Below are positions 1,798 through 53,479 of a stretch of DNA of 64,000 nucleotides, in pieces; position 1 is the stretch's first letter, and the number at the start of each line of letters is the position of its first letter. Source of the DNA: a plasmid. Below the pieces are notes generated by a model. The model ran no database searches. It worked only from the letters and a program-made list of their open reading frames with translations, and was not told the DNA's origin. The position numbers and the translations under genes were made by a program. The stretch lies in the NCBI RefSeq assembly GCF_054482595.1, contig NZ_JBTHVH010000004.1. The stretch is one strand, 5' to 3'.

Positions 1798-1963
1798 ATA
1801 ACTTGGGCTTTGCGCATTAAACCCTTGCCGCAGGCGGTGTACCGCATATCCGGCACAGACAGTCAGTTTTTTCTGGCAGCTTAAATTTGACACTGCTTAA
1901 TATAGTGATTCATTAAACAGGTTCAGTATGCTGCCAGAACGTTTTAGTCGTAATGGGCGTCCG

Positions 1964-3463: not shown

Positions 3464-3488
3464 ATTGATCACCGAAGAAGCGTATCCC

Positions 3489-5129
3489 TTACCACAACAC
3501 CGCAATAGTGCGGTCATCGTGGTTCCCTGTGGAGAAAAAGTTAAGCCAGTCGCCTAACCTCTCAGGCGCAATACTGGCGTCTGTAAGGACAGGGATGAGC
3601 TCATCAAGGAGACGGGTCCATTTTTCGTCACTGCGAAGCCCGTTATCTGTCTCAAACAGAGGGTCTGATACGCCATCTGTCATGAGGATCAAGTGAGATA
3701 CATCATTCCATTTACCCACGCTGATGCGGCCGCTAAACGAGGGGTCTGCGATAATGCTCTGGTCAAGAAAGCGGGTTTGTCCTGCGTATTCTCCGCTATC
3801 GGGATTTCCCAGTATCCTGACTTTACCGGAAGGGCTGTATGCACCTATCGCACCATCACCAAGCCAGAATGCAGCCGCAAACAGCTCGTTATCAGTTCGT
3901 AGCGCTACAGTTGCCAGTAGGGTTGTTGAATAGGATTTCACAGGTTGTTCTGCACAAATGGCTTCGTTCTGGATACTGTTGACCGCGAGCGTAGCTGCCT
4001 GTTTAAAATGATGAAGCATGGCGTTTATGGTTGCCTGCTGATCGCTCCCTTCCCACGCCGTGATGTGCTGCTTTAGATGGACGCCTTTCAAACCACTGAG
4101 CTGATTGAAAAGGTAATCGCCAGCCGTTTGGACTGCAATCCGGGAGCCTTCCCGGGAATTTACCGCACTACCGGCCCCGTCTGCGACCAGCATGACAGAC
4201 CATCCTGTTTCCTGGCAGTGGTTGATATAGAAGTCGTCATCTCTGAAGCTCCCGGCATGCTCATGAGATCGTCCCCGGCGACTGGCGGCAGCAATACGTA
4301 TGTCACCCCTGACCAGGCCAGCAGCGTCCAGATGGGACTTAGGGTAGGAAGCGTCTGCTGGTGGCTCTACCACCTTCCACAGGCTTCTCGGATCGGGATT
4401 GACTATAAAAAGCTGTTTTGTTTCGCATTCGTCGTGCGAAGCGCATGACCAGAGTACTGAAAGCTCTATATCGCCGCTTTCGGTGGGTGTACCTGTCAGC
4501 AACTTATGCTCTTTGTCAAAGGTCAGGCCAATGTTCCTGGGAAAGACAACGTCCCTGACAGTAGCCTGCTGGCCCTCATCCAGAACTATAGCAACCGGCG
4601 AAGAGAAACGTTCGCCTGCGCGGGCGTTGGGAATAACTATTTTAGCTCTCGGGGGAACGGCAGGTGGCACAGCTAATCCGGCCCGCTGCTGGCCTGTCGG
4701 TATCTGCCCGGGTTTTAATACCAGGGAAGACAGGTTTTCGTCTTCCCTCTGTGCTGGTTTATCAAATTCGTAATAAGGCATCAGCTTCCAGAACGGAGGA
4801 TGAGGTTCATTTTCTGGCAGGGGTTGCAGTAATGGTGTATCGGTAGCGTCAATGCCCGGGTTATCAGCATCACTTACGACCGTTTGTTGCTGATCGGAAA
4901 GGCTGGATGCTGACGAGGGGGCGATCTCTGCGTCGTTATAACCTTCGCTAACCCGCGCAGATAAACCCTGTGCAAGGCTCTCAATCCGCTCTTTAAGCCG
5001 CATAATCTCTTCAGTAAGGGAAGGGTCGTGCGATAGAAGAAAAAGCCGCTCACCTTCTACAGGGTGGCCCAGCTCAGACAGCACTAAGCGGATAATCTTC
5101 TCTTCAAGTAAAACATTTTGCGACATCAA
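3489..5129 (-). CDS. PP2C-family Ser/Thr protein phosphatase with long N-terminal extension
   Basis: PP2C signatures 'MLVADGAGSAVNSREGS' and 'LILMTDGVSD'. Its stop overlaps the downstream kinase region; its start overlaps the upstream vWA stop (ATGA). Confidence 0.8.
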   Translation of the reverse strand: MMSQNVLLEEKIIRLVLSELGHPVEGERLFLLSHDPSLTEEIMRLKERIESLAQGLSARVSEGYNDAEIAPSSASSLSDQQQTVVSDADNPGIDATDTPLLQPLPENEPHPPFWKLMPYYEFDKPAQREDENLSSLVLKPGQIPTGQQRAGLAVPPAVPPRAKIVIPNARAGERFSSPVAIVLDEGQQATVRDVVFPRNIGLTFDKEHKLLTGTPTESGDIELSVLWSCASHDECETKQLFIVNPDPRSLWKVVEPPADASYPKSHLDAAGLVRGDIRIAAASRRGRSHEHAGSFRDDDFYINHCQETGWSVMLVADGAGSAVNSREGSRIAVQTAGDYLFNQLSGLKGVHLKQHITAWEGSDQQATINAMLHHFKQAATLAVNSIQNEAICAEQPVKSYSTTLLATVALRTDNELFAAAFWLGDGAIGAYSPSGKVRILGNPDSGEYAGQTRFLDQSIIADPSFSGRISVGKWNDVSHLILMTDGVSDPLFETDNGLRSDEKWTRLLDELIPVLTDASIAPERLGDWLNFFSTGNHDDRTIAVLW

Positions 5130-6166
5130 CCTCTCCCTCTGTTTACGTCGAAGTTAGTGTTTCCGCCATCATTGCTGAATGACAGACCTGTTTCACACCA
5201 CGGGCAGATCACGTCATCCGGGCCGTCAATGCACAGCAATTTTCCGCATGAGCACAGGGCAAACGCACTGGCATTACCGCAGTGAGGGCAACCCGGTACG
5301 CCATGCAGTTCGCTGGTGTTTACCTGCAAACCGGTAGCGGTGGCATCTGACCATGCAAAATAGTCTTCATCGATGGGATAGCATCCGGCAATATTAAAGC
5401 TGTTCAGGTTCAGGCTGAAATCGAGCCCGGAAATCCTTGCTGGTGGCCGTTCATACTTCATCAGATACGGACGACGGGTCTTGCTGCAACGGCCGGTAAG
5501 CGTAACGCAGTTTTCGTCGTACGCTTTTACTGGCTCGTCCTTGGCCAGCCGGACTATGTATTCAGTCTGGCTGAGCTCAGGTTGTTTGTCGTCTCCGACG
5601 CTGCGGCTGTGCGCCGTAACCGAGGCTGTGATCCATTTGATGAAGCGGGTAAAGTCCCCTTCCTGAGACTCGGTGAACAGCATGACATTCTCTGTCAGTT
5701 GCCGCAGGGTATTCAGGTCCGCTGACGGCCCCAGGCCAACGGCAATGAGATTCACTTTACTCGCGTAGTGATCCTTCCAGCGCTTCACTTCTGCGGTTGT
5801 GTCGTCAGTCGGACGTCCGTCGGTAAGGAGATACACGACGGGTTTCCAGTCGCCTTTAGCCTCATGAGTGGTTTTTCTGACCTGGGTATCAATTTGTACG
5901 GTCAGCTCACGCAATGCGGCCCCAAGGCTCGTACCGCCGCCAACGGGAAGGCGGGGAGGGTAGAACGAGGCAATTTCGTGAAGAGGTACAATCGTACGGG
6001 CTACACCGGCAAATGCGATTACCGAAACCCAGGCTGTTTCAAGTGCGTGTGGATCCTTTCTTAAATCTCCGATGATCATTTGCAGACCATCAGTCATTTT
6101 TTTCAGGTTTTCACCAATCATGGACTCTGAACAGTCCAGGACAAAAAACACGGGAAGGCGTCTCAT
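5126..6166 (-). CDS. vWA-domain protein (TerY-like) with C-terminal zinc ribbon
   Basis: MIDAS motif 'FFVLDCSESM' directly after the start 'MRRLPV' (ATG at 6166 with GAGGAAAA RBS); C-terminal 'CPHCGN..CSCG..CPWC'. The track ORF N-extension to 6370 is rejected. Confidence 0.75.
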   Translation of the reverse strand: MRRLPVFFVLDCSESMIGENLKKMTDGLQMIIGDLRKDPHALETAWVSVIAFAGVARTIVPLHEIASFYPPRLPVGGGTSLGAALRELTVQIDTQVRKTTHEAKGDWKPVVYLLTDGRPTDDTTAEVKRWKDHYASKVNLIAVGLGPSADLNTLRQLTENVMLFTESQEGDFTRFIKWITASVTAHSRSVGDDKQPELSQTEYIVRLAKDEPVKAYDENCVTLTGRCSKTRRPYLMKYERPPARISGLDFSLNLNSFNIAGCYPIDEDYFAWSDATATGLQVNTSELHGVPGCPHCGNASAFALCSCGKLLCIDGPDDVICPWCETGLSFSNDGGNTNFDVNRGRG

Positions 6167-6251
6167 AATTTTCCTCGTACGGCTGGTACGGCCAGCAGAA
6201 AACGTTGCTGTACAGAAAGGTGCTGCCCGGAAAGCAGCACCTTTCTGTCTG

Positions 6252-6893
6252 TCAGAGCACCAGCTGGATTTCTGGTGGAGGAGGGGGAAGGGTATCAGTT
6301 CCGTTATTGATCCCCGCGCTTGTGCTGCCGGAAGACACGCTGGCCGATACCCATTTAAAGAAACCTGCAAACGCGGTTGAATCTAGCGTCTCCAGAGACA
6401 CAACCTTATCGGTGAGCTGTTTTAAGTGCTCATGGCCTGCTTTAGGACCAACGGCGCAGGCAATGATGGATCCGAATCCCCGGCCGCGAATCGCTTTTAC
6501 CGCTTCACCGTACGCCAGGGCATCAGAAGGGGTTCCATCAGTCATCAGGAATACCAGAGGACGCCAGTCTCCTTTTGTATCACCATCTGAGCGACGTACA
6601 TCCCGTTCAACACACTGCATCAGACATTCAAGGGCAGCACCGGTGAACGTCCCGCCTGCGCTTGGCACAACGATGTCAGAAAACTGGAAGTCTTCCAGCG
6701 GCGTGAGAGGAATGAACTCACGCGCCTCATTGTCATAGGTGATAATGGAGATATGAACGCTTTCGAGGGCGTAGGGATCCTGGCGAAGAGCGCTAAGCAT
6801 CGCCTGAATTCCAACGTTAACGGAATGGATGGACTCACCGCGCATCGAGCCGGATGTGTCGATAACAAGGTAAACAGGCAGGCGGCGCATCAC
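6252..6893 (-). CDS. vWA-domain protein, TerY-like
   Basis: 'MMRRLPVYLVIDTSGSM' gives the DxSxS MIDAS motif at the N-terminus; 213 aa. Confidence 0.8.
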   Translation of the reverse strand: MMRRLPVYLVIDTSGSMRGESIHSVNVGIQAMLSALRQDPYALESVHISIITYDNEAREFIPLTPLEDFQFSDIVVPSAGGTFTGAALECLMQCVERDVRRSDGDTKGDWRPLVFLMTDGTPSDALAYGEAVKAIRGRGFGSIIACAVGPKAGHEHLKQLTDKVVSLETLDSTAFAGFFKWVSASVSSGSTSAGINNGTDTLPPPPPEIQLVL

Positions 6894-7531
6894 ATGTAAT
6901 TCCTCAGGTGCGAGACAAACGAATCTGATTCTGAAGGCTCACCAATTGCCCTGAGTTTCCAGCCTGTAGCCTCGCGTATCAGCTCGGCAAAAACCATGGA
7001 GCGCTGGCTGGCGAAGGCGGGTCCGCCAGAAAGATCGAATCGTGCCATTTCAATATTACGGGCATCTACTGCCCGGATGAAGGCATTCTGAACTTTACCA
7101 AAGTGCTGCTGGAGCTTTTCACCATTGTAGATCTGAACGATGAACACAATTTTCTCGTACTGAGCGTCAAGGGAATTCAGGCGCACAATAATTTGCTCAT
7201 CGTCACCATCACCGGCTCCGGTTCGGTTATCGCCCGTCAGCCAGATATTTCCTGACTTATGGCGAAGGCTGTTGAAAAAGATGATATCGCCATTCACAAG
7301 CGTTGGTTTACCATTTTCCACATTGCCGAGATCGGTCACCTTTCCGGCTGAATTACACAGGAAAGCGATCACATCAAGGTCGTATTCTTCTTCTTTTTTA
7401 CCAAAGATCCCGCCGAGGAAACCTTTCTTTTCCTCATTAATATCCCAACCCAGGCCGATAGTAACGGACGAGAGATCGTATTCATTTTTTTTCAGGCTTA
7501 CGCCCTGGCCTTTGCTCAGACTGACAGACAT
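6890..7531 (-). CDS. terX: TerD-family protein (TerX-like)
   Basis: TerD-family Ca-binding motif 'GDNRTGAGDGDDEQI'; paralogous by eye to terZ/terD/terE in this window; overlaps the downstream gene by 4 bp. Confidence 0.8.
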   Translation of the reverse strand: MSVSLSKGQGVSLKKNEYDLSSVTIGLGWDINEEKKGFLGGIFGKKEEEYDLDVIAFLCNSAGKVTDLGNVENGKPTLVNGDIIFFNSLRHKSGNIWLTGDNRTGAGDGDDEQIIVRLNSLDAQYEKIVFIVQIYNGEKLQQHFGKVQNAFIRAVDARNIEMARFDLSGGPAFASQRSMVFAELIREATGWKLRAIGEPSESDSFVSHLRNYM

Positions 7532-7553
7532 GACATCCCCTTAATTAATAAAA

Positions 7554-8192
7554 TTATAAGACCACGTTTACTTCTGGCGGCGGCGGTGGCAGGTCTTCAA
7601 GACCGATCACTTCTTTTTTGCTGGACTCCACTTTCTGACTGCCTACCGAAATGCTCGCACTGACCCATTTAAAGAAAGCTTTAATCGTCGAACTGTCAGC
7701 TGTATCGAGCTGAACCACGATTTCAGTGATTTCTTTGAGGACGCTGGTATCGGCATCATGCCCGGCTGCACATGCCACAACAACGCCGGTTCTGGCCGCT
7801 TTAAAGTCATTCAGGCCTTTACGCCAGTCATCATTCGGACTTCCATCCGTCATCAGGAATACAAGGGGACGCCAGTCACCTTTAGTGTCAGCCGTCGTTT
7901 TCTGTACTTCTTTGGCAATGGAGCTGGCCGTGAGGGAAAGCGCTTCGCCAAGAGAGGTGGTGCCGCTGGCTGTTAGTGCTGGCATCTGGAAACTCAGGAG
8001 GTCTGTCAGGGGGACTGCCTGTCGGGCTGAAGAATCAAAGGTGATCACTGACACGTAAGCCGTTTCGAGTGCATACGGATCCTGTTTCAGCGTGGTAAGC
8101 AGCGTCTGAACGCCATTCTTAACCGCTTCGATAGGCTCTCCGTGCATAGAGCCGGACGTGTCGAGTAGCAGATATACGGGTAAGCGTCTCAA
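7554..8192 (-). CDS. terY: vWA-domain protein TerY
   Basis: 'RRLPVYLLLDTSGSMHGE' MIDAS motif. Start assigned to TTG at 8192 preceded by AAGAAGGAA, matching the other vWA paralog N-termini, rather than the track GTG at 8273. Confidence 0.75.
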   Translation of the reverse strand: MRRLPVYLLLDTSGSMHGEPIEAVKNGVQTLLTTLKQDPYALETAYVSVITFDSSARQAVPLTDLLSFQMPALTASGTTSLGEALSLTASSIAKEVQKTTADTKGDWRPLVFLMTDGSPNDDWRKGLNDFKAARTGVVVACAAGHDADTSVLKEITEIVVQLDTADSSTIKAFFKWVSASISVGSQKVESSKKEVIGLEDLPPPPPEVNVVL

Positions 8193-8611
8193 ATGTAATT
8201 CCTTCTTAAGAGATCGGAAGAGGAGAGTAGTTTCAGGAAGAGGCCAGAGTTTGTAGATTTGATAAAACGGCACGACATCTGTCGGGTGGAGATTAAATAC
8301 TCAGAAGCGGCATTAAAGAAATAAGTTAACCACCATTGAATTACCGACATGTGAATGGCCTCTTATCAGAGAAAAAAATTCAGACCGTACTGGAATATAA
8401 ATTTCTGAAAAAAACTCCGGCAAAAATAAACTTTCTTATGTATGAAAATCATCATACATCACAGATCTGCATGAATGGAGTGTAAATCGCCCAAAGATTG
8501 ATGTGTAGCACAAGAGGATGTCAAGACACCAGGTTTTGTAGGCAGAAAGGCGCTGCTGACATTGCGGGAGGAGAATAGATCAAAACTCCGTCACGCAGAT
8601 ACAGAGGTGAA

Positions 8612-30367: not shown

Positions 30368-30729
30368 ATGCCGACCGAACAAGAGCTGATTTCGAGAACG
30401 CCTCAGCCAGCAACTCGCGCGAGCCTAGCAAGGCAAATGCGAGAGAACGGCCTTACGCTTGGTGGCACAGTTCTCGTCCACAGTTCGCTAAGCTCGCTCG
30501 GCTGGGTCGCGGGAGGGCCGGTCGCAGTGATTCAGGCCCTTCTGGATTGTGTTGGTCCCCAGGGCACGATTGTCATGCCCACGCACTCGGGTGATCTGAC
30601 TGATCCCGCAGATTGGAGATCGCCGCCCGTGCCTGCCGATTGGGTGCAGATCTTGCGCAACGAGATGCCGGCATACGATCCGCAAACCACACCAACTCGG
30701 AACATGGGTGCAGTGGCTGAATTGTTCCG
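30368..30729 (+). pseudogene. 3'-truncated AAC(3)-family acetyltransferase gene
   Basis: First 120 codons resemble the AAC(3) N-terminus ('GGTVLVHSSLSSLG...GTIVMPTHSGDLTDP'); the frame is cut by the IS6-family element at about 30730. Confidence 0.5.
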
Positions 30730-31619
30730 GGCGTGTCGCAAACACTTTTGGAGGCAGCTATCACCCAGCCAAGGCCGGTATTTTCATGCTTTGTTAACCT
30801 TTTGCAGTCCGAAGAGGCGCGCAAGCAAATCATTCTGGTCATTGACGGTCCAGCCGCCTGAAAAGCCAAAGCCCTTCCGCAGCCACAGCATCGCCTCGAA
30901 ACCCGCGATGGTTCGCCGCGCCGTGTTAAAGGATTGGAAACCGCCGATCTTCGGCATGTTCTTCTTCACCCGGAAATGGTCGCTCTCAATCCCCTGCTGG
31001 AGATGTTTGGTCACATAATGCACGGGATCGGGATGGAGAAGCCCATCATCAACCGACGTTTTGATCGTTGACGGGAAGGTGTTGGCCCCGTCCGTCCCAA
31101 TCCTGTTCGGCGACAACAAGGGTTCATCTTTAAGCATCTTTCGGAAGAACCGCTTGGCAGCGTCGAGATCGCGCTTAGCGGTCAGCAGGAAATCCACCGG
31201 ATTGCCATGCTTATCGATGGCTCGGTACAGATAGCGCCATTTGCCGCGGATCTTGACATAGGTCTCATCAATCCGGACCGAGCCGCAATGGGGTCGACGA
31301 AACTGCCGCAGCCGTTTCTCGATGACAGGTGCATAAGCCAATACCCAGCGGTTGATCGTGCTATGATCGACCTCGAAGCCCCGCTCGCGAAACATCTCTT
31401 CCAAGTCACGATAGCTGAGCGGGTAGCGCAAGTACCAGGCAACCGCCTGTACAATCAGCCAGGCCTCGAAATGCCTGCCCTTGAAATCATCCTTCGACTG
31501 GCGCTTCAGCTTTTCGGCAATGGTATTCAAAATCATCGGCTCGCTCCGCAATATCAGGAGCGGCAACTTCTCTCCCCATGGTCAACATCGAGTTAACCTG
31601 AAGAATTTGCGACAAGGCC
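30730..31619 (-). mobile_element. IS6-family insertion sequence, distinct from IS26 (about 890 bp)
   Basis: Imperfect terminal repeats GGCGTGTCGCAAA (left) and GGCCTTGTCGCAAA (right, reverse complement) flanking a 260-aa IS6-type transposase; exact IS name not determined. Confidence 0.7.
30784..31566 (-). CDS. IS6-family transposase (260 aa)
   Basis: Same domain layout as IS26 Tnp ('FKGRHFEAWLIVQAVAWYLRYPLSYRDLEEM...') but divergent in sequence. Confidence 0.8.
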   Translation of the reverse strand: MPLLILRSEPMILNTIAEKLKRQSKDDFKGRHFEAWLIVQAVAWYLRYPLSYRDLEEMFRERGFEVDHSTINRWVLAYAPVIEKRLRQFRRPHCGSVRIDETYVKIRGKWRYLYRAIDKHGNPVDFLLTAKRDLDAAKRFFRKMLKDEPLLSPNRIGTDGANTFPSTIKTSVDDGLLHPDPVHYVTKHLQQGIESDHFRVKKNMPKIGGFQSFNTARRTIAGFEAMLWLRKGFGFSGGWTVNDQNDLLARLFGLQKVNKA

Positions 31620-33121
31620 ATGCGTTCCGCTCCGGAGATGTCTGGCTTACTAGGTCCCGGCGCTATGGCGATCTGAAACACGCACTCGTTCCGGCACAAT
31701 CCATCGCGGAAGGCGGTCGTCTCGCTGTGCCATTGCGGCCGGAGGAATGGCTGGCAGACCGGCAAGCTCGCCTCGACATGCGGTTGCGCGAGCTTGGCCG
31801 TGCCGCTCGCGCAGGCACGATCCCGGGCGGGTCGATTGAAAACGGCGTTCTGCATATCGAGAAACTCGAAGCCGCCGCGCCGACAGGCGCCGAAGATCTG
31901 GTGCTCGATCTCTACAAGCAGATCCCGCCCACGCGCATCACCGATCTCCTGCTGGAGGTGGATGCGGCGACCGGCTTCACCGAAGCGTTCACCCATCTGC
32001 GCACAGGAGCACCCTGCGCTGACCGGATCGGGCTAATGAACGTTATCTTGGCGGAAGGGATCAACCTCGGCTTGCGCAAAATGGCGGATGCGACAAACAC
32101 CCACACCTTCTGGGAATTGATCCGCATTGGACGGTGGCATGTCGAGGGCGAAGCCTATGACCGGGCGCTGGCCATGGTGGTCGAGGCACAGGCAGCGTTA
32201 CCCATGGCCCGGTTCTGGGGCATGGGCACGTCGGCTTCGAGCGACGGACAGTTCTTCGTCGCTACAGAGCAAGGTGAGGCCATGAACCTGGTCAACGCGA
32301 AATATGGCAATACCCCGGGCCTGAAAGCCTATAGCCACGTCTCCGACCAATATGCGCCGTTCGCAACCCAGGTGATTCCTGCAACGGCAAGCGAAGCGCC
32401 TTACATCCTCGATGGCCTGCTGATGAACGATGCTGGACGCCATATCCGCGAGCAGTTCACCGACACGGGCGGCTTCACCGATCACGTCTTTGCCGCATGT
32501 GCCATTCTCGGCTACCGGTTCGCTCCGCGCATCCGCGACCTGCCATCCAAACGGCTCTACGCGTTCAATCCGTCGGCCGCCCCGGCGCACCTGCGAGCGT
32601 TGATCGGCGGAAAGGTCAACCAAGCCATGATCGAGCGCAATTGGCCCGACATCCTGCGCATCGCCGCCACCATTGCTGCCGGGACCGTCGCGCCAAGCCA
32701 GATTCTGCGGAAACTCGCCTCCTATCCGCGGCAGAACGAGCTCGCGACAGCCCTGCGGGAAGTCGGTCGCGTCGAGCGCACCCTGTTCATGATCGACTGG
32801 ATTCTGGATGCCGAACTCCAACGGCGTGCCCAGATCGGGCTCAACAAAGGCGAAGCTCATCATGCGCTGAAGCGGGCAATCAGCTTCCACCGCCGCGGTG
32901 AAATCCGCGACCGTTCCGCCGAAGGCCAGCATTACCGCATCGCCGGCATGAATCTGCTCGCCGCCATCATCATCTTCTGGAACACCATGAAGCTCGGCGA
33001 GGTCGTTGCAAACCAGAAACGCGATGGAAAGCTGCTATCGCCCGATCTCTTGGCCCATGTTTCGCCGCTCGGATGGGAACACATCAATCTCACCGGAGAA
33101 TATCGCTGGCCAAAGCCTTAG
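31620..33121 (+). pseudogene. tnpA: 5'-truncated Tn3-family transposase gene (Tn5393-type tnpA, C-terminal about 500 codons)
   Basis: Homologous by eye to the C-terminal half of the 995-aa TnpA at 50492..53479 ('...SPLGWEHINLTGEYRW'); the track ORF start lies inside the IS6 element so the 5' end is missing. Confidence 0.7.
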
Positions 33122-33153
33122 CGTAGGATTCCGCCCCCTCCCGCAAACGACCC
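33073..33153. repeat. Tn5393-type 81-bp terminal inverted repeat (tnpA end)
   Basis: Reverse complement reads 'GGGGTCGTTTGCGGGAGGGGGCGGAATCCTACGCTAAGGCTTTGGCCAGCGATATTCTCCGG...', matching the recalled Tn5393 IR; overlaps the tnpA 3' end. Confidence 0.6.
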
Positions 33154-33154
33154 C

Positions 33155-34066
33155 GTGATGACCCTGCAGGCATCCCCTGAGACCCGGTTAATGCGCGCCG
33201 AGGTGCAGCGGCATTATCCGCACATCTGGCAGGAGCTGGAGGGGCTGGCGCAGGGACTGGAGGCCACTGTTGATCAGGTCTTTGCCTGGAACTGCCGTGG
33301 CGATCTGGTGCGCTCAACGTCGGATGGCTGTACGACGGTGGCCGGGGTAAACGCCGCAGGCGAGCGGATTATCGCGCATAATGAAGACGGTTTTCCTCAG
33401 TTACGGGATGAATGCTTGCTGGCTACCATTACTCCGAGTCGCGGTCTGAGCTTTACGAGTTTTGCCTATCCGGGGTCGATTTGCGGCCACACCTTTGCGG
33501 TAAATGAAAAAGGTATCGTTAACACGGTGAATAACATCCGTGCAGTGTATCGTCCGCAGGGATTACCGCGTCAGATCCTGGCTCGCGCCTCGCTGAATGC
33601 GAACACCCTCGACGAGGCCATCACTATACTTACCGGCCAGCCGCGATCCGGGGCGTTTCACCATACGCTCGGGCAGCTGGGCGATGCGCGGCTGTTCAGC
33701 GTTGAGGCCACCGGTCAAGGCTGTTCCGTTCTACCCCTGACGACGGTAACCGGGCATGCCAACCATCTGGTGCATGCGGCACTGGCTGGCGTTGAGCAGA
33801 TCGTTACCGACAGTTCAGCGTCGCGGCAGTTACGCCTCGTGCAGTGGCGGGAAACGCAACCTCCGTTTGACGCCGCGGCGGCAAAAACCATTCTCTCAGA
33901 TACCCATGACGCAGAACTGCCAATTTACCGGCTGGCTGCCGACGATCCGGATGAGGAGAACACCCTCGCCACGGCAGTTTTCACCCTCGATGCCAACCAC
34001 GTCAGGTGGCAAATTTTCGACATTAACCGCGACGATGCTAAATTTCATGGAGAAGTGCGTGGGTGA
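33155..34066 (+). CDS. Hypothetical Ntn-hydrolase / peptidase C45-like protein (303 aa)
   Basis: ORF with 'DGCTT' candidate nucleophile context; family assignment is tentative. Confidence 0.45.
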   Translation: MMTLQASPETRLMRAEVQRHYPHIWQELEGLAQGLEATVDQVFAWNCRGDLVRSTSDGCTTVAGVNAAGERIIAHNEDGFPQLRDECLLATITPSRGLSFTSFAYPGSICGHTFAVNEKGIVNTVNNIRAVYRPQGLPRQILARASLNANTLDEAITILTGQPRSGAFHHTLGQLGDARLFSVEATGQGCSVLPLTTVTGHANHLVHAALAGVEQIVTDSSASRQLRLVQWRETQPPFDAAAAKTILSDTHDAELPIYRLAADDPDEENTLATAVFTLDANHVRWQIFDINRDDAKFHGEVRG

Positions 34067-34219
34067 AATAGCCGGTCGTCAGTCATAAAGGGCAGGGGAG
34101 TACCGTTGGCCCGGCGTTCGATAGTACCGTCCGGATACTGCCAGATATCGGCGTCCAGGGAGATGTCCTGAAGCGCGGTGTCCGGAATTTCAGGTTTGTG
34201 TCTCTACAAAGACTAACTA

Positions 34220-35035
34220 TCAGAAAAACTCATCGAGCATCAAATGAAACTGCAATTTATTCATATCAGGATTATCAATACCATATTTTTGAAAAAGCCG
34301 TTTCTGTAATGAAGGAGAAAATTCACCGAGGCAGTTCCATAGGATGGCAAGATCCTGGTATCGGTCTGCGATTCCGACTCGTCCAACATCAATACAACCT
34401 ATTAATTTCCCCTCGTCAAAAATAAGGTTATCAAGTGAGAAATCACCATGAGTGACGACTGAATCCGGTGAGAATGGCAAAAGCTTATGCATTTCTTTCC
34501 AGACTTGTTCAACAGGCCAGCCATTACGCTCGTCATCAAAATCACTCGCATCAACCAAACCGTTATTCATTCGTGATTGCGCCTGAGCGAGACGAAATAC
34601 GCGATCGCTGTTAAAAGGACAATTACTAACAGGAATCGAATGCAACCGGCGCAGGAACGCTGCCAGCGCATCAACAATATTTTCACCTGAATCAGGATAT
34701 TCTTCTAATACCTGGAATGCTGTTTTCCCGGGGAGCGCAGTGGTGAGTAACCATGCATCATCAGGAGTACGGATAAAATGCTTGATGGTCGGAAGAGGCA
34801 TAAATGCCGTCAGCCAGTTTAGTCTGACCATCTCATCTGTAACATCATTGGCAACGCTACCTTTGCCATGTTTCAGAAACAACTCTGGCGCATCGGGCTT
34901 CCCATACAATCGATAGATTGTCGCACCTGATTGCCCGACATTATCGCGAGCCCATTTATACCCATATAAATCAGCATCCAGGTTGGAATTTAATCGCGGC
35001 CTCGAGCAAGACGTTTCCCGTTGAATATGGCTCAT
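34220..35035 (-). CDS. aph(3')-Ia: Aminoglycoside 3'-phosphotransferase APH(3')-Ia (kanamycin/neomycin resistance)
   Basis: 'MSHIQRETSCSRPRLNSNLDADLYGYKWARDNVGQSGATIYRLYGKPDAPELFLKHGKG...' matches recalled Tn903 AphA1. Confidence 0.9.
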   Translation of the reverse strand: MSHIQRETSCSRPRLNSNLDADLYGYKWARDNVGQSGATIYRLYGKPDAPELFLKHGKGSVANDVTDEMVRLNWLTAFMPLPTIKHFIRTPDDAWLLTTALPGKTAFQVLEEYPDSGENIVDALAAFLRRLHSIPVSNCPFNSDRVFRLAQAQSRMNNGLVDASDFDDERNGWPVEQVWKEMHKLLPFSPDSVVTHGDFSLDNLIFDEGKLIGCIDVGRVGIADRYQDLAILWNCLGEFSPSLQKRLFQKYGIDNPDMNKLQFHLMLDEFF

Positions 35036-35139
35036 AACACCCCTTGTATTACTGTTTATGTAAGCAGACAGTTTTATTGTTCATGATGATATATTTTTAT
35101 CTTGTGCAATGTAACATCAGAGATTTTGAGACACAACGT

Positions 35140-35264
35140 GGATTTGTTGAATAAATCGAACTTTTGCTGAGTTGAAGGATCAGATCACGCATCTTCCCGA
35201 CAACGCAGACCGTTCCGTGGCAAAGCAAAAGTTCAAAATCACCAACTGGCCCACCTACAATAAA
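35140..35264. mobile_element. IS903 end remnant (about 125 bp) upstream of aph(3')-Ia
   Basis: 'GGATTTGTTGAATAAATCGAACTTTTGCTGAGTTGAAGGATCAGATCACGC...' resembles the IS903 terminal repeat and adjoining sequence of Tn903; cut by the Tn5393 IR. Confidence 0.5.
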
Positions 35265-35345
35265 GGGGTCGTTTGCGGGAGAGGGCGAAATCCTACGCTA
35301 AGGCTTTGGCCAACGATATTCTCCGGTAAGATTGATGTGTTCCCA
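35265..35345. repeat. Tn5393-type 81-bp terminal inverted repeat (strB end)
   Basis: 'GGGGTCGTTTGCGGGAGAGGGCGAAATCCTACGCTAAGGCTTTGGCCAACGATATTCTCCGG...' immediately downstream of strB. Confidence 0.6.
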
Positions 35346-35370
35346 GGGGATAGGAGAAGTCGCTTGATAT

Positions 35371-36207
35371 CTAGTATGACGTCTGTCGCACCTGCTTGAT
35401 CGCGGCCGCGATAGCTAGATCGCGTTGCTCCTCTTCTCCATCCGCGTTCCAAGCTGCGGAAAGGCACCCATAAGCGTACGCCTGGTCGAGCAGGCGACGC
35501 GGATCGACGTCCAGCGCACGAGAGAATGCGTCCGCCATCTGTGCAATGCGTCTAGGATCGAGACAAAGGTCGTCTCTGTCAGCCGGATCGTAGAACATAT
35601 TGGCGGCGCCAAAGCCCACTTCACCGACCAGACCGACGGGATCTATCACCAGCCAGCCGCGACTGGAGAACATGATGTTTTCATGATGCAGATCGCCATG
35701 TAGCCCACGCAGTTCCGAGGCATTGCTCATCATTTGATCGGCTATAATCGCCGCGTGGACGTAGTCAGTTTGACAACCTGCGTTTTGATCATCGCGCGCC
35801 CGCTGAAACAAAGCTGCAAAGCGATCCCGGATCGGGAGAAGGGCAGAAGGCAGGGGTTCCTCAGATGCGGCATACAGCTTCGCCATTAGTTCCGCTGCAA
35901 TTTCGGTCGCCTGGTAGTCGCCGTGCTCGGCAACGATGTGAGAGAGCATTCGCTCCCCGGCATATTCGAGCAACATCAGATTGTTCTCACGACCGAGCAA
36001 CCGGACTGCTCCCCTCCCATTGCGCCATACCAGATAGTCGGCCCCGCGCAGTTCATCAGCAATGTCTTCTATAGGTTTCAATTCCTTGACGATTGCAGGA
36101 GTCCCGTCTGGCAATGAAACTTTCCAAACGAGGCTGGAAAAGGTGTCCGCAATGAGAACAGGTTGCGAAACGTGCCAATGAGCAGGAAAAACAGGCGGCA
36201 TGAACAT
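35371..36207 (-). CDS. strB: Streptomycin phosphotransferase APH(6)-Id
   Basis: 'MFMPPVFPAHWHVSQPVLIADTFSSLVWKVSLPDGTPAIVK...' matches recalled StrB; its ATG shares one base with the strA stop. Confidence 0.9.
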   Translation of the reverse strand: MFMPPVFPAHWHVSQPVLIADTFSSLVWKVSLPDGTPAIVKELKPIEDIADELRGADYLVWRNGRGAVRLLGRENNLMLLEYAGERMLSHIVAEHGDYQATEIAAELMAKLYAASEEPLPSALLPIRDRFAALFQRARDDQNAGCQTDYVHAAIIADQMMSNASELRGLHGDLHHENIMFSSRGWLVIDPVGLVGEVGFGAANMFYDPADRDDLCLDPRRIAQMADAFSRALDVDPRRLLDQAYAYGCLSAAWNADGEEEQRDLAIAAAIKQVRQTSY

Positions 36208-37010
36208 CAACCCCAAGTCAGAGGGTCCAATCGCAGATAGAAGGCAAGGCGTTCGCGGTCGGGGGCTTCGATCCCCAATACATTGAATAGGACAGCGAAG
36301 GCGCGCTCTGCTTCATCTGGCGCTGCCCAGTTCTCTTCGGCGTTAGCAATCATGAGTGCCAAATCGGCATAGCGATCTGCTGTTCCGAGCCGCCCAAGGT
36401 CGATCAGACCCGTGCATTGAAGAGTTTTAGGGTCCACCATGAAGTTCGGCATGCAGGGATCACCATGGCAAACAACCATATCGGTGCGCTCTTGGTCGAG
36501 CCGCACCGGTAGCTCTCGTTCGACACGAGCCAAAAGATCGAGCTGCGGCGTACTCTTGTCCTCGTCCGGTAAGAAGTCGGGATTGACGGCATTGCGGGAC
36601 ACCACATCAACGGCGCGTCCGAACATTCGCGACAGCCTGCGCTCAAACGGACATTGATCAACCGATAGGCTGTGAACAGCGCCAAGTTGCTGCCCCATTG
36701 ACGGCCACGCTTTGAGCAAATCCGCTCCAGACAGATCAGCCGCCGGTACTCCCGGAATTGCCGTTATCACCAAGCATGCACCCTCCTGTTCCTCCTGCCA
36801 GTTGATCACCTCGGGGCAAGCCACACCTCGACCTTTGAGCCAAATGAGGCGGTCACGCTCTCCAGCGAGCTCACCGCGGCGGGAAGCAGGTGCGATTTTC
36901 GCGAAGGCATGCCCGTCACCACGTCGAAAAACAAAATCACCAGATTCTCCGCCTCTGACAGGCAACCAGTCAGAATGCGATTCACCAAAAAAAATATTAG
37001 TTCGATTCAA
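36207..37010 (-). CDS. strA: Streptomycin phosphotransferase APH(3'')-Ib
   Basis: '(M/L)NRTNIFFGESHSDWLPVRGGESGDFVFRRGDGHAFAKIAP...' matches recalled StrA; TTG start at 37010 with GAAGGA RBS. Confidence 0.9.
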   Translation of the reverse strand: MNRTNIFFGESHSDWLPVRGGESGDFVFRRGDGHAFAKIAPASRRGELAGERDRLIWLKGRGVACPEVINWQEEQEGACLVITAIPGVPAADLSGADLLKAWPSMGQQLGAVHSLSVDQCPFERRLSRMFGRAVDVVSRNAVNPDFLPDEDKSTPQLDLLARVERELPVRLDQERTDMVVCHGDPCMPNFMVDPKTLQCTGLIDLGRLGTADRYADLALMIANAEENWAAPDEAERAFAVLFNVLGIEAPDRERLAFYLRLDPLTWG

Positions 37011-50491: not shown

Positions 50492-53479
50492 ATGGCAAGG
50501 AGGCAGATTCTTTCTCTGTCGGAAAGAGAATCATTACTGGCATTACCGGACGATGAGTTAACGCTGACCCGAATGGCCTATTTCAGTGAGCATGATCTGG
50601 CGCTTATCAGTGCTCACCGTAAACCCGCCAGCCGTTTTGGTTTTGCCGTCCTTCTTTGCTATCTGAAAAATGTCGGCTTTGCCCCGGATAAAAAAATCTC
50701 TCCCTCTGATGCGCTGCTGAAGCATATCGCCAGCAGGCTAAAGCTTACCGGGGATCTCTGGCCTGCTTACCTTTCCGGCCGGGATACGACCCTGCGTGAG
50801 CATTTAACCGAACTGTACCGCTATCTTGGCGTAAAGGCGTTCACCGGCAAAATACAGCAGGACTGTATTACGCACCTGTTATCGATGGCGACGCGCACCG
50901 ATAAAGGCATTCTCCTAGCCGAAGAGTTACTTGTCTATCTCCGGCAGAACAACGTGATAATCCCCGCGATTGATGTCGTGGAGCGTACCTGTGCTGAAGT
51001 CATGGCAGGCGGCGATAAAATCGTATTTCAGACCCTGAATGCCCCGTTAACTCCGGCTCACAGGGATGCCCTGGATCATTTACTTGAGTCATCAGATAAT
51101 CAGCCTTCCAGGCTGACATGGCTTCTGCAACCGCCGGGTAAAATCAATGGTAAGAACGTGCTGCAACATCTTGATCGGCTCAGCAGCATTGAATCGCTGG
51201 CATTACCTGAAGGTATAGATCGTACCATTCACCAGAACCGGTTGCTGAAACTGGCGCGGGAAGGCCGAAAGATGAGTAGCCGGGATTTGACCCGATTTTC
51301 AGCTGCCCGGCGTCATGCGATCCTGGTGTGCGTGCTGGAAGAAGCCAGAGCCACACTGACAGACGAAGTGATTGAGCTGCATGAGCGAATGCTGAATAGT
51401 CTTTTCAGCAAAGCCAAACGAACACAGGCTGAGCGCCTTCAGCAGACCGGAAAGCTGATCCAGTCAAAACTGAGGCAGTACATCGATGTCGGTCAGGCGC
51501 TGTCTGATGCCCGTGATTCCGGTGGCGATCCCTGGCTCGCAATAGAAAACATACTCCCATGGGCTGAATTTGTCGCCAGTCTGGATGAAACACGCCATCT
51601 CGCCAGAAAAAATAATTTTGACCCGCTGCATATTATTACCGAGAAATACAGCACATTACGGAAATATGCCCCACGCATGTTGTCCGCTTTACAGTTAGTC
51701 GCAACCCCGGCAGCGCAACCTCTGGCTGATGCACTGGTTGTGATCAAGGATATGTACCGGAAGCAGTCACGTAAAGTTCCGGCGGCAGCGCCGCTTGAGT
51801 TTGTCCCTGAAAGCTGGCGCAAGGTGGTGATTACACCTGTGGGTATTGACCGGCAGTACTATGAGTTTTGTGCACTCAGCGAGCTTAAGGGGGCGTTGCG
51901 CTCCGGGGATATCTGGGTTAAAGGCTCGCGCCGCTACAAAAATTTTGATGATTACCTCATACCCGAGAAGGACTTTGACAAACTCACACCGGCACTGCCA
52001 CTGCCCGTATCTGCTGATTATCATGAGTACATTACCAGCCGTATGACCCTGCTTCAGTCCAGACTTGAAGAGGTCAATGCCATGGCTGCCCTTGGTGAAC
52101 TGCCCGATGTGGAAATATCCGACAGGGGCGTAAAAGTCTCTCCGCTGGATAACTGCGTTCCGGCGCAGGTTTCACCGCTGGCAGAGCTGGTTTACAGCAT
52201 GCTACCGCGACCTAAAATCACGGAAATTCTCGATGAGGTAAACAGCTGGACGACGTTTACCCGACATTTTTCGCATATAAAAAATGACATTACCCGTCCC
52301 GATACCCGCTTGCTCCTCACCACCATTCTTGCGGATGGCATCAATCTTGGCCTGACCAAAATGGCAGAAGCCTGCCCCGGGAGCACCAAATCATCACTCG
52401 AAGATATTCAGGCATGGTACATCCGTGACGAAACCTATTCAGCCGCTCTTGCAGAGCTGGTAAATGCGCAGGGGAAAAGACCGTTGGCGGCATTTTGGGG
52501 AGACGGAACAACGTCATCATCAGATGGACAAAATTTCAGAACCGGCAGCTCAGGCCGCTACGCAGGGCAGGTTAACCCGAAATATGGGCAAGAGCCTGGA
52601 CGTCAGTTTTATACCCATATTTCGGATCAATACAGCCCGTTTTACACCTGCATAATCAGTCGGGTCAGGGATTCAACCCATGTTCTCGATGGCTTGCTGT
52701 ACCACGAAAGCGACCTGGAAATCAGGGAACATTACACCGATACCGCTGGTTTCACCGATCATGTCTTTGCCCTGATGCATCTGTTGGGATTTGCGTTCTG
52801 TCCGCGAATCAGGGATCTCCACGACAAAAAACTGTTTATCAAAGGGAAAGCAGAGAAATACCCGGCGCTTCAGTCACTGATATCAACGACCAGCCTGAAT
52901 CTGAAAGAGATCGAAATCCACTGGCGTGAAGTGCTGCGTCTGGCAACCTCGATAAAGCAGGGAACCGTGACGGCATCCCTGATGCTGAAAAAGCTTGCCA
53001 GCTATCCCAAGCAAAACGGACTTGCCAAAGCACTGAGAGAAATTGGCCGCATTGAGCGAACCCTGTTTATGCTCGACTGGTTCCGCGACCCGGCTCTGCG
53101 TCGGCGGGTACAGGCGGGGCTGAATAAAGGCGAAGCCCGTAACGCGCTGGCGCGTGCGGTATTTATGCACCGACTGGGAGAAATCAGGGACAGAAAACCG
53201 GAAAATCAGAGCTATCGCGCCAGTGGACTGACGCTGCTGACGGCTGCCATATCCCTGTGGAATACCGTCTATATGGAAAGAGCGGTCGATGCCCTGAAGC
53301 GTAAAGGGGTGAAGATCAACGAGCAACTGCTGTCGCATTTGTCGCCGTTGGGCTGGGAACACATCAATCTGACAGGTGATTATATCTGGAAAAGCAACCG
53401 GATACCGGCTTCTGGTAAGTTTCGTCGGCTAAGACCAGCTAAAGTCGAAAGGTCAAAAAACAGCCTTAACGTACAATAA
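50492..53479 (+). CDS. tnpA: Tn3-family transposase TnpA (995 aa)
   Basis: Full-length; conserved C-terminal '...HYTDTAGFTDHVFALMHLLGF...LSPLGWEHINLTGDYIW'; ATG at 50492 with AGGAAAAC RBS. Confidence 0.85.
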   Translation: MARRQILSLSERESLLALPDDELTLTRMAYFSEHDLALISAHRKPASRFGFAVLLCYLKNVGFAPDKKISPSDALLKHIASRLKLTGDLWPAYLSGRDTTLREHLTELYRYLGVKAFTGKIQQDCITHLLSMATRTDKGILLAEELLVYLRQNNVIIPAIDVVERTCAEVMAGGDKIVFQTLNAPLTPAHRDALDHLLESSDNQPSRLTWLLQPPGKINGKNVLQHLDRLSSIESLALPEGIDRTIHQNRLLKLAREGRKMSSRDLTRFSAARRHAILVCVLEEARATLTDEVIELHERMLNSLFSKAKRTQAERLQQTGKLIQSKLRQYIDVGQALSDARDSGGDPWLAIENILPWAEFVASLDETRHLARKNNFDPLHIITEKYSTLRKYAPRMLSALQLVATPAAQPLADALVVIKDMYRKQSRKVPAAAPLEFVPESWRKVVITPVGIDRQYYEFCALSELKGALRSGDIWVKGSRRYKNFDDYLIPEKDFDKLTPALPLPVSADYHEYITSRMTLLQSRLEEVNAMAALGELPDVEISDRGVKVSPLDNCVPAQVSPLAELVYSMLPRPKITEILDEVNSWTTFTRHFSHIKNDITRPDTRLLLTTILADGINLGLTKMAEACPGSTKSSLEDIQAWYIRDETYSAALAELVNAQGKRPLAAFWGDGTTSSSDGQNFRTGSSGRYAGQVNPKYGQEPGRQFYTHISDQYSPFYTCIISRVRDSTHVLDGLLYHESDLEIREHYTDTAGFTDHVFALMHLLGFAFCPRIRDLHDKKLFIKGKAEKYPALQSLISTTSLNLKEIEIHWREVLRLATSIKQGTVTASLMLKKLASYPKQNGLAKALREIGRIERTLFMLDWFRDPALRRRVQAGLNKGEARNALARAVFMHRLGEIRDRKPENQSYRASGLTLLTAAISLWNTVYMERAVDALKRKGVKINEQLLSHLSPLGWEHINLTGDYIWKSNRIPASGKFRRLRPAKVERSKNSLNVQ

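What the first reader, a model, noticed from the sequence alone, without database searches (positions are those of the whole stretch)
33155..34066. Ntn-hydrolase / C45-like gene as unexplained passenger in the resistance region
A 303-aa ORF with an N-terminal 'DGCTT' context sits immediately outside a Tn5393-type repeat and next to aph(3')-Ia. It is not a known resistance determinant; C45-type acyltransferases act on beta-lactam-like or peptide substrates, so a modifying role is conceivable but unproven.
Basis: inference. Interest (0 to 1): 0.45.

Follow-up and report, generated by a model that had tools for sequence, protein, structure and literature searches.

The report
Truncated hitchhiker gene beside aphA1
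The 303-codon C45/Ntn-hydrolase ORF is a beheaded piece of a Klebsiella michiganensis chromosomal gene that was carried onto plasmids with its neighbour, the kanamycin-resistance gene aphA1, so it is ordinary passenger debris and not a hidden resistance gene.

Summary
An ORF runs from 33155 to 34066 (+). It matches the C45/AAT family and keeps the DGCTT nucleophile motif. It starts at the first base after an 81-bp Tn5393 terminal repeat and lies 153 bp from aph(3')-Ia, in convergent orientation.

The ORF is not an intact gene. Window 33155-35141 is 98.4-98.8% identical to K. michiganensis chromosomal DNA. There the orthologue is 340 aa and is the last gene of a conserved rpiR-aminotransferase-orf183-glnHPQ-C45 cluster, with aphA1 next to it or a few kb away.

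The Tn5393 end cut the gene at codon 38. That removed the promoter, the ribosome-binding site and 37 conserved N-terminal residues: the first beta-strand, the first helix and most of the second. Every K. michiganensis-type copy in the plasmid database (about 140 near-full matches) starts at this same base, so one truncation event was inherited by all.

Moran and Hall (JAC 2025, PMC12670165) already showed that aphA1 came from K. michiganensis. They also showed that a putative C45 peptidase gene travels with it in TnaphA1-pIE545.

The family call is right and the passenger is now explained. An antibiotic-modifying role is unsupported. Interest is low.

The parts
31481..33121 (+). 3' part of the Tn5393 (Tn3-family) transposase gene tnpA; its 5' end is removed by the IS6-family element to the left
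   Evidence: NCBIfam NF033527 transpos_Tn3, E=1.2e-195. It matches only model positions 449-954 of 954. The same gene is annotated 'Tn3 family transposase' and is intact in L001.
33074..33154 (.). 81-bp terminal inverted repeat of Tn5393 (tnpA end); its last base marks the break in the C45 gene
   Evidence: Its inverted partner at 35265-35345 is 95% identical over 81 nt. Homology to the K. michiganensis chromosome begins at 33155.
33155..34066 (+). 5'-truncated C45-family (AAT/Ntn-hydrolase) gene remnant: codons 38-340 of the 340-codon K. michiganensis gene
   Evidence: Family matches. 98% amino-acid identity to P0001 (340 aa, K. michiganensis). 6 nt differences in 912 nt from L002-L009. NCBIfam model positions 1-41 are absent, whereas the full-length gene covers 1-312.
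33329..33331 (+). Codon of the conserved nucleophile Cys (ORF Cys59 = Cys96 of the full-length protein), within DGCTT
   Evidence: It aligns with Cys103 of P. chrysogenum IAT (2x1d; the C103A precursor 2x1c has Ala here). It is invariant in 39 homologues.
34067..34219 (.). K. michiganensis intergenic DNA between the convergent C45 and aphA1 genes (configuration of locus L002, matching the YZUMF202001 arrangement described in the paper)
   Evidence: Alignment with L002 is contiguous apart from an 11-bp indel. In L003/L009 the match breaks at 34206|34219.
34220..35035 (-). aph(3')-Ia (aphA1), the kanamycin/neomycin phosphotransferase and the selected cargo
   Evidence: NCBIfam NF051474 APH_3p_Ia, 643.6 bits against a cut-off of 625. 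AMRFinder annotation in L001/L025.
35036..35141 (-). Native K. michiganensis sequence upstream of aphA1, with a promoter-like site
   Evidence: 100% identical to L002 over 106 nt. A promoter-like site lies on the - strand at 35115..35086.
35140..35264 (.). About 125-bp end fragment of an IS903-group (IS5-family) insertion sequence, cut by the second Tn5393 repeat
   Evidence: 97.7-100% identical to ends annotated 'IS5-like element IS903B family transposase'. The junction with aphA1 upstream DNA is at the same position as in Tn903.
35265..35345 (.). Second Tn5393 terminal inverted repeat (strB end)
   Evidence: It is followed by strB, aph(6)-Id, at 35371-36216 on the - strand.

Best explanation
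The ORF is an inert, 5'-truncated relic of a Klebsiella michiganensis chromosomal gene. In that species a 340-aa C45-family proenzyme is the last gene of a conserved rpiR-aminotransferase-orf183-glnH-glnP-glnQ-C45 cluster. In some strains the intrinsic aphA1 gene lies convergently right next to it. An IS903-group element inserted about 105 bp upstream of aphA1, and the gene was mobilised together with flanking chromosomal DNA (inferred). Later a Tn5393 end landed inside the C45 gene at codon 38 and another landed in the IS903 copy. That left a 1,987-bp K. michiganensis island (33155-35141) between two outward-facing Tn5393 repeats. The C45 remnant persists only because it is physically linked to the selected genes aphA1 and strAB. 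It has lost its promoter, its ribosome-binding site and the first 37 residues, which form the first beta-strand, the first helix and most of the second. It is therefore not expected to fold, to self-cleave at Gly95|Cys96 or to have any activity. What is shown: the truncation, the source, the shared junction and the synteny. What is inferred: the order of events and the lack of expression or activity.
For: - **Breakpoint.** Homology to K. michiganensis contigs starts at 33155, the base after the Tn5393 repeat, and runs to 35141: 98.4% over 1,987 bp contiguous in L002, and 98.8% in two blocks in L003-L009.
- **Length of the native gene.** Full-length orthologues are 340 aa and are named K. michiganensis, including type strain DSM 25444. 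The window ORF corresponds to residues 38-340.
- **Missing N-terminus.** The NCBIfam C45_proenzyme model is matched only from position 42, but from position 1 in the full-length gene. The missing residues include the invariant positions M1, K2, G8, S9, G14, L17, G18, G21, A24, W25, L34 and W35. The G-S/T-P-F-E-I-G motif among them is shared even with fungal IAT.
- **Structure.** In the AF2 model (pLDDT 91) residues 2-8 form a strand, and residues 10-27 and 33-39 form helices, all at pLDDT 95-98. The fold is that of IAT (TM 0.8, E=2e-20).
- **No expression signals.** No promoter-like site lies upstream on the + strand. There is no purine-rich Shine-Dalgarno sequence in CCCTCCCGCAAACGACCCCGTGATG.
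- **One shared junction.** Every K. michiganensis-type copy in PLSDB begins at the same nucleotide, and none carries the 5' 111 bp or glnQ. The exact 302-aa product occurs on at least 998 contigs.
- **The fragment is dispensable.** Other aphA1 contexts keep 0, about 100 or about 230 bp of the gene, or lack it altogether.
- **Native context.** Synteny of the 7-gene cluster is conserved across Klebsiella, Pantoea, Enterobacter and Pseudomonas, and APH occurs only in K. michiganensis-type loci.
Against: - The 912-nt frame is still open and the nucleophile and beta-subunit residues are intact, so a truncated polypeptide is not impossible.
- tnpA is transcribed toward the ORF and no terminator was predicted between them, so read-through transcription is plausible.
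- Lack of expression and lack of activity are inferred, not measured.
- The excess of nonsynonymous over synonymous differences from the nearest chromosomal allele (4:2, including H169Y at a 94%-conserved His) is not significant (p=0.18). It therefore does not show relaxed selection.
- The order of the IS903 and Tn5393 events is not resolved, and there is no target-site duplication (GTGAT against ATAAA).
Confidence: 0.9

Rival explanations
1. One reading: the ORF encodes a working C45 acyltransferase/amidase that modifies a beta-lactam-like or peptide antibiotic and is kept in the resistance region for that reason.
For: Strong family match and a conserved DGCTT nucleophile. The frame is open and the ORF is very widespread on resistance plasmids. 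Read-through from tnpA is possible.
Against: It lacks 37 N-terminal residues, including 12 invariant ones and the first strand and helix. It has no ribosome-binding site or promoter. Every copy shares one junction, so its spread is explained by linkage to aphA1/strAB. Tn903-type and other aphA1 contexts carry shorter C45 fragments or none, so aphA1 spreads without this ORF. The native gene sits in an amino-acid transporter/aminotransferase cluster, not a resistance context. It matches no resistance-gene model.
Confidence: 0.03
2. The ORF is a complete gene with a naturally shorter N-terminus that belongs to the plasmid or transposon, not a truncated chromosomal gene.
For: RefSeq annotates it as an ordinary CDS, WP_000174819.1 'C45 family peptidase', without a pseudogene flag.
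Against: In K. michiganensis the same DNA continues upstream in frame for 37 more codons, to an ATG 19 nt after glnQ. The 39 aligned homologues are 337-344 aa and all carry a conserved N-terminus. Homology ends exactly at the Tn5393 repeat. Some sources label the 302-aa product 'partial'.
Confidence: 0.01
3. The fragment is retained because it acts in cis for aphA1, as a native 3' flank or spacer that stabilises the aphA1 transcript or shields it from antisense read-through out of tnpA.
For: The 153-bp intergenic region and the C45 3' end are the native convergent neighbour of aphA1. tnpA points toward aphA1 in antisense orientation.
Against: No terminator-like structure was found in 32900-35400. 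Tn903-type elements keep only about 60 bp of a different downstream sequence (passenger lengths in PMC12670165 Table 1), and from established knowledge Tn903 and Tn4352 confer kanamycin resistance without this flank. Variants with internal deletions of the fragment exist (H41).
Confidence: 0.05

Closest known systems
TnaphA1-pIE545 passenger segment (Moran & Hall, J Antimicrob Chemother 2025, PMC12670165)
   Same: It is K. michiganensis chromosomal DNA in which aphA1 directly abuts a putative C45 family peptidase gene (the YZUMF202001-type configuration). It was captured by an IS903-group element upstream of aphA1, and the C45 gene is a co-mobilised bystander.
   Different: In pIE545 the C45 gene is complete and is followed by glnQ and a partial glnP (3,312 bp), bounded by two IS102 copies with a 9-bp duplication, and the IS lies 116 bp from the aphA1 start. 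Here only 1,987 bp remain and C45 is cut at codon 38 by a Tn5393 end. The IS903-type end lies about 105 bp from the start and is itself cut by a second Tn5393 end. No duplication flanks the segment. A direct sequence comparison was not possible because PV671756 is not in the collections.
Tn903 (IS903-aphA1-IS903)
   Same: The IS903/aphA1-upstream junction is at the same position, and the resistance gene family is the same.
   Different: The Tn903 passenger is 980 bp and contains no C45 sequence. Its sequence downstream of aphA1 is of the other chromosomal type (as in locus L003; TAA stop). The aphA1 allele differs at 7 nt, giving 5 amino-acid changes.
Acyl-CoA:isopenicillin N acyltransferase (IAT/PenDE) of Penicillium chrysogenum, PDB 2X1C/2X1D/2X1E; MEROPS family C45
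   Same: The full-length K. michiganensis orthologue has the same fold (TM 0.78-0.81, E about 1e-20) and the same Gly|Cys autoprocessing motif, DG|CTT. The N-terminal GxPFEIG motif is also shared.
   Different: Identity is only about 17%. The bacterial gene lies in an amino-acid ABC-transporter/aminotransferase cluster, not a penicillin pathway. The window copy lacks the first 37 residues of the alpha-segment.
Chromosomal flank fragments carried with other mobilised resistance genes (for example K. pneumoniae DNA around blaSHV in IS26-bounded TnSHV, cited in PMC12670165)
   Same: Bystander genes or gene fragments from the source chromosome travel with the resistance gene and serve as markers of its origin.
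   Different: The source species, insertion sequences and genes differ.

Membership tests
C45 family autoproteolytic acyltransferase/hydrolase (Pfam PF03417 AAT; NCBIfam NF040521) | Profile match above the curated threshold | tested here: met
   NF040521 scores 236.6 bits against a cut-off of 85, E=4.3e-70. PF03417 E=9.4e-36.
C45 family autoproteolytic acyltransferase/hydrolase (Pfam PF03417 AAT; NCBIfam NF040521) | Conserved Gly-Cys autoprocessing site and N-terminal nucleophile Cys | tested here: met
   DGCTT at ORF residues 57-61. It aligns with Cys103 of IAT and is invariant in 39 homologues.
C45 family autoproteolytic acyltransferase/hydrolase (Pfam PF03417 AAT; NCBIfam NF040521) | Complete proenzyme, including the N-terminal (alpha/pro) segment | tested here: not met
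   Model positions 1-41 are absent, while the full-length orthologue covers 1-312. Residues 1-37, which include 12 invariant positions, strand 2-8 and helix 10-27, are missing.
C45 family autoproteolytic acyltransferase/hydrolase (Pfam PF03417 AAT; NCBIfam NF040521) | Ntn-hydrolase alpha-beta-beta-alpha fold | tested here: inconclusive
   This is met for the full-length K. michiganensis orthologue (pLDDT 91; 2x1d TM 0.8). Whether the truncated product can fold was not tested, and prediction could not settle it reliably.
C45 family autoproteolytic acyltransferase/hydrolase (Pfam PF03417 AAT; NCBIfam NF040521) | Autoproteolysis and acyltransferase/amidase activity | not testable with these tools
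   This needs protein expression and an assay.
aphA1 passenger segments derived from the K. michiganensis chromosome (PMC12670165) | Near-identity over a contiguous stretch of the K. michiganensis chromosome that includes aphA1 | tested here: met
   98.4% over 1,987 bp contiguous to L002, and 98.8% to L003-L009 in two blocks. Orthologues are named K. michiganensis, including DSM 25444.
aphA1 passenger segments derived from the K. michiganensis chromosome (PMC12670165) | Bounded by two copies of one IS (compound or pseudo-compound transposon) with a target-site duplication | tested here: not met
   Only one truncated IS903-group end is present (35140-35264). The other boundary is a Tn5393 repeat. 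The flanking 5-mers GTGAT and ATAAA differ.
Acquired antibiotic-resistance determinant | Match to a curated resistance-gene model or annotation | tested here: not met
   The only NCBIfam hit is the generic C45_proenzyme model. The AMRFinder/RGI tracks of L001 and L025 flag the neighbouring genes but not this ORF.

The most novel reading that the evidence does not exclude
The truncated ORF is translated from the ATG at 33158 on read-through transcripts from Tn5393 tnpA. Despite lacking residues 1-37 it still folds, self-processes at Gly|Cys and hydrolyses or acylates some amide-containing compound such as an antibiotic, giving the aphA1-strAB island an extra selectable trait.
Probability: 0.02. 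Interest if true: 0.55.

Novelty: already known. Interest (0 to 1): 0.08.

Why it matters
- **Candidate removed.** This takes one candidate 'cryptic resistance gene' off the list. The ORF marks where aphA1 came from; it is not a new function.
- **Annotation.** RefSeq names the 302-aa product as an ordinary 'C45 family peptidase' on about a thousand or more contigs across many genera. It would be better flagged as a partial gene or pseudogene.
- **Epidemiology.** The exact Tn5393|C45 junction at 33154/33155 is a convenient single-event marker for tracing this particular aphA1-strAB island, for example on IncHI2 and IncX1 plasmids from livestock-associated Salmonella and E. coli.
- **Small extension of the published work.** The 1,987-bp K. 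michiganensis segment is not among the passenger segments listed in Table 1 of Moran & Hall. It combines the upstream IS903 junction of Tn903 with the YZUMF202001-type downstream arrangement.

Tried and rejected
- **Target-site duplication.** I looked for one around the two Tn5393 ends and found none (GTGAT against ATAAA). The island is therefore not simply a Tn5393 target cut open, and the order of events stays unresolved.
- **The other half of the gene.** I searched the whole window for the 5' 111 bp of C45, glnQ or any other K. michiganensis DNA, and found nothing beyond 33155-35141.
- **Relaxed selection.** Nonsynonymous:synonymous differences are 4:2 against the nearest chromosomal allele, compared with 43:89 between species. 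Fisher p=0.18, so this is not usable as evidence.
- **Expression signals.** The promoter/terminator scan found nothing upstream of the ORF and no terminator. This is a weak negative.
- **pIE545.** I tried to fetch PV671756 for a direct comparison, but it is not in the collections.
- **Prior descriptions.** I checked an IncHI2 paper (PMC5955447) for this configuration. It describes a different aphA1a region, Tn6363/ISKpn21.
- **Full-length copies on plasmids.** Only natural homologues at about 87-91% identity turned up (Phytobacter and Plautia-symbiont plasmids), which are not the mobile segment.

Full report
**Observation.** The ORF is real. It runs from 33155 to 34066 on the + strand and encodes 303 aa from a GTG. 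Annotators of identical plasmid DNA call it from the ATG three bases later, as the 302-aa WP_000174819.1 'C45 family peptidase'. It matches Pfam AAT PF03417 (E=9.4e-36) and NCBIfam NF040521 'C45 family autoproteolytic acyltransferase/hydrolase' (236.6 bits against a cut-off of 85). The DGCTT motif is at ORF residues 57-61. To the left lies an 81-bp Tn5393-type terminal repeat (33074-33154), preceded by the 3' part of a Tn3-family transposase gene. To the right, 153 bp away and convergent, is aph(3')-Ia at 34220-35035.

**What it is.** The NCBIfam match covers only model positions 42-312, which suggested a missing N-terminus. The protein search found a 340-aa relative at 98% identity named Klebsiella michiganensis (P0001), and essentially all other homologues are 337-344 aa. 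The window ORF equals residues 38-340 of P0001, and its 'GTG ATG' are the codons for V38 and M39. P0001 is encoded on large chromosomal contigs. Window 33155-35141 aligns to these at 98.4-98.8% identity, and the alignment begins at 33155, the base after the last base of the Tn5393 repeat. The genome scan places the closest full-length gene in K. michiganensis, including type strain DSM 25444. K. indica follows at 86%, and Pantoea and Enterobacter at about 70%. So a Tn5393 end cut a K. michiganensis chromosomal gene at codon 38.

**Native context.** In the chromosomal loci the C45 gene is the last gene of a cluster: an rpiR-type regulator, a class-III aminotransferase, a 183-aa ORF, glnH, glnP and glnQ, then C45 starting 19 nt after glnQ. 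The same seven-gene arrangement is kept in K. indica, Pantoea and Enterobacter, and in partly rearranged form in a Pseudomonas. This points to a role in uptake and catabolism of some amino-acid-like compound. It does not point to antibiotic modification, though that is an inference.

A 271-aa gene scoring above the APH(3')-Ia cut-off sits convergently next to C45 in L002. It lies about 2.2 kb away in L009 and about 6.3 kb away in L003, L004 and L007, and it is partly or wholly deleted in L005, L006 and L008. The window has the L002 arrangement: the C45-aphA1 junction abuts the aphA1 stop codon.

**Published explanation.** Moran and Hall (J Antimicrob Chemother 2025, PMC12670165) showed that aphA1 was mobilised at least three times from K. 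michiganensis chromosomes with different surrounding configurations. They also showed that the 3,312-bp passenger segment of TnaphA1-pIE545 contains 'a putative C45 family peptidase', glnQ and a partial glnP, matching strain YZUMF202001. The 'unexplained passenger' is therefore the known chromosomal neighbour of aphA1, here in beheaded form.

**Why it is probably non-functional.**
- The missing residues 1-37 contain 12 positions that are invariant in 39 diverse homologues: M1, K2, G8, S9, G14, L17, G18, G21, A24, W25, L34 and W35.
- The GSPFEIG motif among them is shared even with the fungal isopenicillin-N acyltransferase (IAT).
- In a confident AlphaFold model of the full-length protein (pLDDT 91, pTM 0.92), these residues form the first beta-strand (2-8), the first long helix (10-27) and most of the next helix (33-39), at pLDDT 95-98.
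- That model has the IAT fold (2x1d, TM about 0.8, E=2e-20). From established knowledge of IAT, both the small alpha and the large beta fragments are needed for activity, and correct folding of the precursor is needed for self-cleavage.
- The truncation also removed the operon promoter and the native translation start. The 20 nt before the ATG (CCCTCCCGCAAACGACCCCGTG) contain no Shine-Dalgarno-like sequence, and no promoter-like site lies upstream on the + strand.

Read-through from tnpA cannot be excluded, since no terminator was found. Non-expression is therefore an inference.

**Why it persists.**
- About 140 plasmid records in PLSDB carry the fragment at 100% or near-100% identity.
- A query spanning glnQ and the 5' end of C45 shows that every K. 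michiganensis-type plasmid copy starts at the same nucleotide (query position 854 = codon 38). None carries the 5' 111 bp.
- The exact 302-aa product is seen on at least 998 contigs.
- This pattern indicates one truncation event spread by linkage, not repeated selection.
- Other aphA1 contexts keep about 230, 108, 93 or 49 bp of the downstream DNA, about 100 bp of C45 (L024), or a different downstream sequence altogether, as in Tn903. aphA1 therefore spreads without this ORF.
- The open frame is not evidence of constraint, because the plasmid copies are essentially identical to each other.
- Against the nearest chromosomal allele there are 6 differences in 912 nt, 4 of them nonsynonymous, including H169Y at a His kept in 113 of 120 homologues. 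The excess is not significant (p=0.18).

**Structure of the island.**

| Window coordinates | Feature |
|---|---|
| 31481-33121 (+) | 3' part of Tn5393 tnpA |
| 33074-33154 | Tn5393 terminal repeat |
| 33155-34066 (+) | Truncated C45 gene |
| 34067-34219 | Native intergenic DNA |
| 34220-35035 (-) | aphA1 |
| 35036-35141 | Native aphA1 upstream region |
| 35140-35264 | IS903-group end fragment, about 125 bp |
| 35265-35345 | Second Tn5393 terminal repeat |
| 35371-36216 (-) | strB, followed by strA |

The 5-mers outside the two repeats differ (GTGAT and ATAAA), so there is no shared target duplication. No other K. michiganensis DNA occurs in the window. The most economical history is this: IS903-group capture of aphA1 with downstream chromosomal DNA, followed by two Tn5393-end junctions from separate events or separate copies, with later loss of the outer parts. 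The order of these events is inferred, not shown.

The IS903/aphA1 junction is at the same position as in Tn903. However, the aphA1 allele differs at 7 nt (5 aa), and the downstream configuration is the other chromosomal type. This 1,987-bp passenger segment is not one of those tabulated by Moran and Hall. That is a modest extension of their result and not a new phenomenon.

**Verdict.**
- Observation: confirmed.
- Family assignment: correct.
- 'Unexplained passenger': now explained, and already in the literature in essence.
- Antibiotic-modifying role: unsupported, with probability about 0.02-0.03.
- Novelty: already known.
- Interest: low, about 0.08.

The practical value lies in correcting the annotation (partial gene or pseudogene) and in using the junction as a lineage marker.

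Noticed in passing
window 34220-35264, compared with L028 (Tn903) and L002/L003: The IS903-group junction upstream of aphA1 is at the same position as in Tn903. However, the aphA1 allele differs at 7 nt (5 aa: M/L, E/A, I/L, V/A, C/S), the stop codon is TGA instead of TAA, and the downstream DNA is the other K. michiganensis configuration. This 1,987-bp passenger is not in Table 1 of PMC12670165. It could be a recombinant or a further capture.
   Followed up: partly
window 30368-30780 (+): Directly downstream of hph (aph(4)-Ia) lies the N-terminal part, about 120 aa, of a divergent AAC(3)-type acetyltransferase. It scores 76 bits on NF033082 against a cut-off of 270, covering model positions 2-106 of 262, and is cut off by the IS6-family element at 30784-31536. 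This is another truncated bystander gene, and it is not annotated in the matching plasmid record.
   Followed up: partly
window 30784-31536 (-): The IS6-family transposase here is not the standard IS26 protein. It is annotated WP_000602738.1 'IS6 family transposase' (250 aa), whereas the flanking IS26 copies carry WP_001067855.1. It truncates the Tn5393 tnpA gene.
   Followed up: no
L026 (E. coli IncX1 plasmid pMS1718-4, NZ_CP097715.1) 1105-3311: This is a compact variant of the same island in an IncX1 backbone: 150 bp of the Tn5393 tnpA end plus the repeat, the truncated C45, aphA1 and only about 62 bp of IS903. These are followed by a direct copy of the last 23 bp of the Tn5393 repeat instead of the inverted strB-side repeat.
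   Followed up: partly
L002-L009 (K. michiganensis chromosomal contigs): The aphA1 locus is highly polymorphic within the species. aphA1 is adjacent to C45 in L002, about 2.2 kb away in L009, and about 6.3 kb away, behind TetR/MFS/Fe-ADH/LysR genes, in L003/4/7. It is 5'-truncated in L005 and absent apart from 181 bp of upstream DNA in L006/L008.
   Followed up: partly
L011 (JQCU01000494.1, labelled Acinetobacter idrijaensis MII) 2204-8459: An 18.7-kb contig labelled Acinetobacter carries the complete Klebsiella-type aminotransferase-glnHPQ-C45 cluster with aphA1 adjacent, at 95.5% nt identity to the window segment. It probably reflects contamination or a mislabelled Klebsiella-like source, and it may represent a more divergent lineage with the C45-aphA1 adjacency.
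   Followed up: no
L021 (uncultured Collinsella MAG contig) and L024 (Anaerobiospirillum sp. contig): L021 ends in 631 bp that are 100% identical to window 33293-33923, which is probably plasmid DNA mis-binned into a Gram-positive MAG. L024 carries aphA1 with only the last ~100 bp of C45 (window 33967-35039, 99%), a different truncation point.
   Followed up: no
window 53354-53370: A 17-nt exact match to the inner end of the Tn5393 terminal repeat. It could be chance or a further Tn3-family repeat remnant elsewhere in the window.
   Followed up: no
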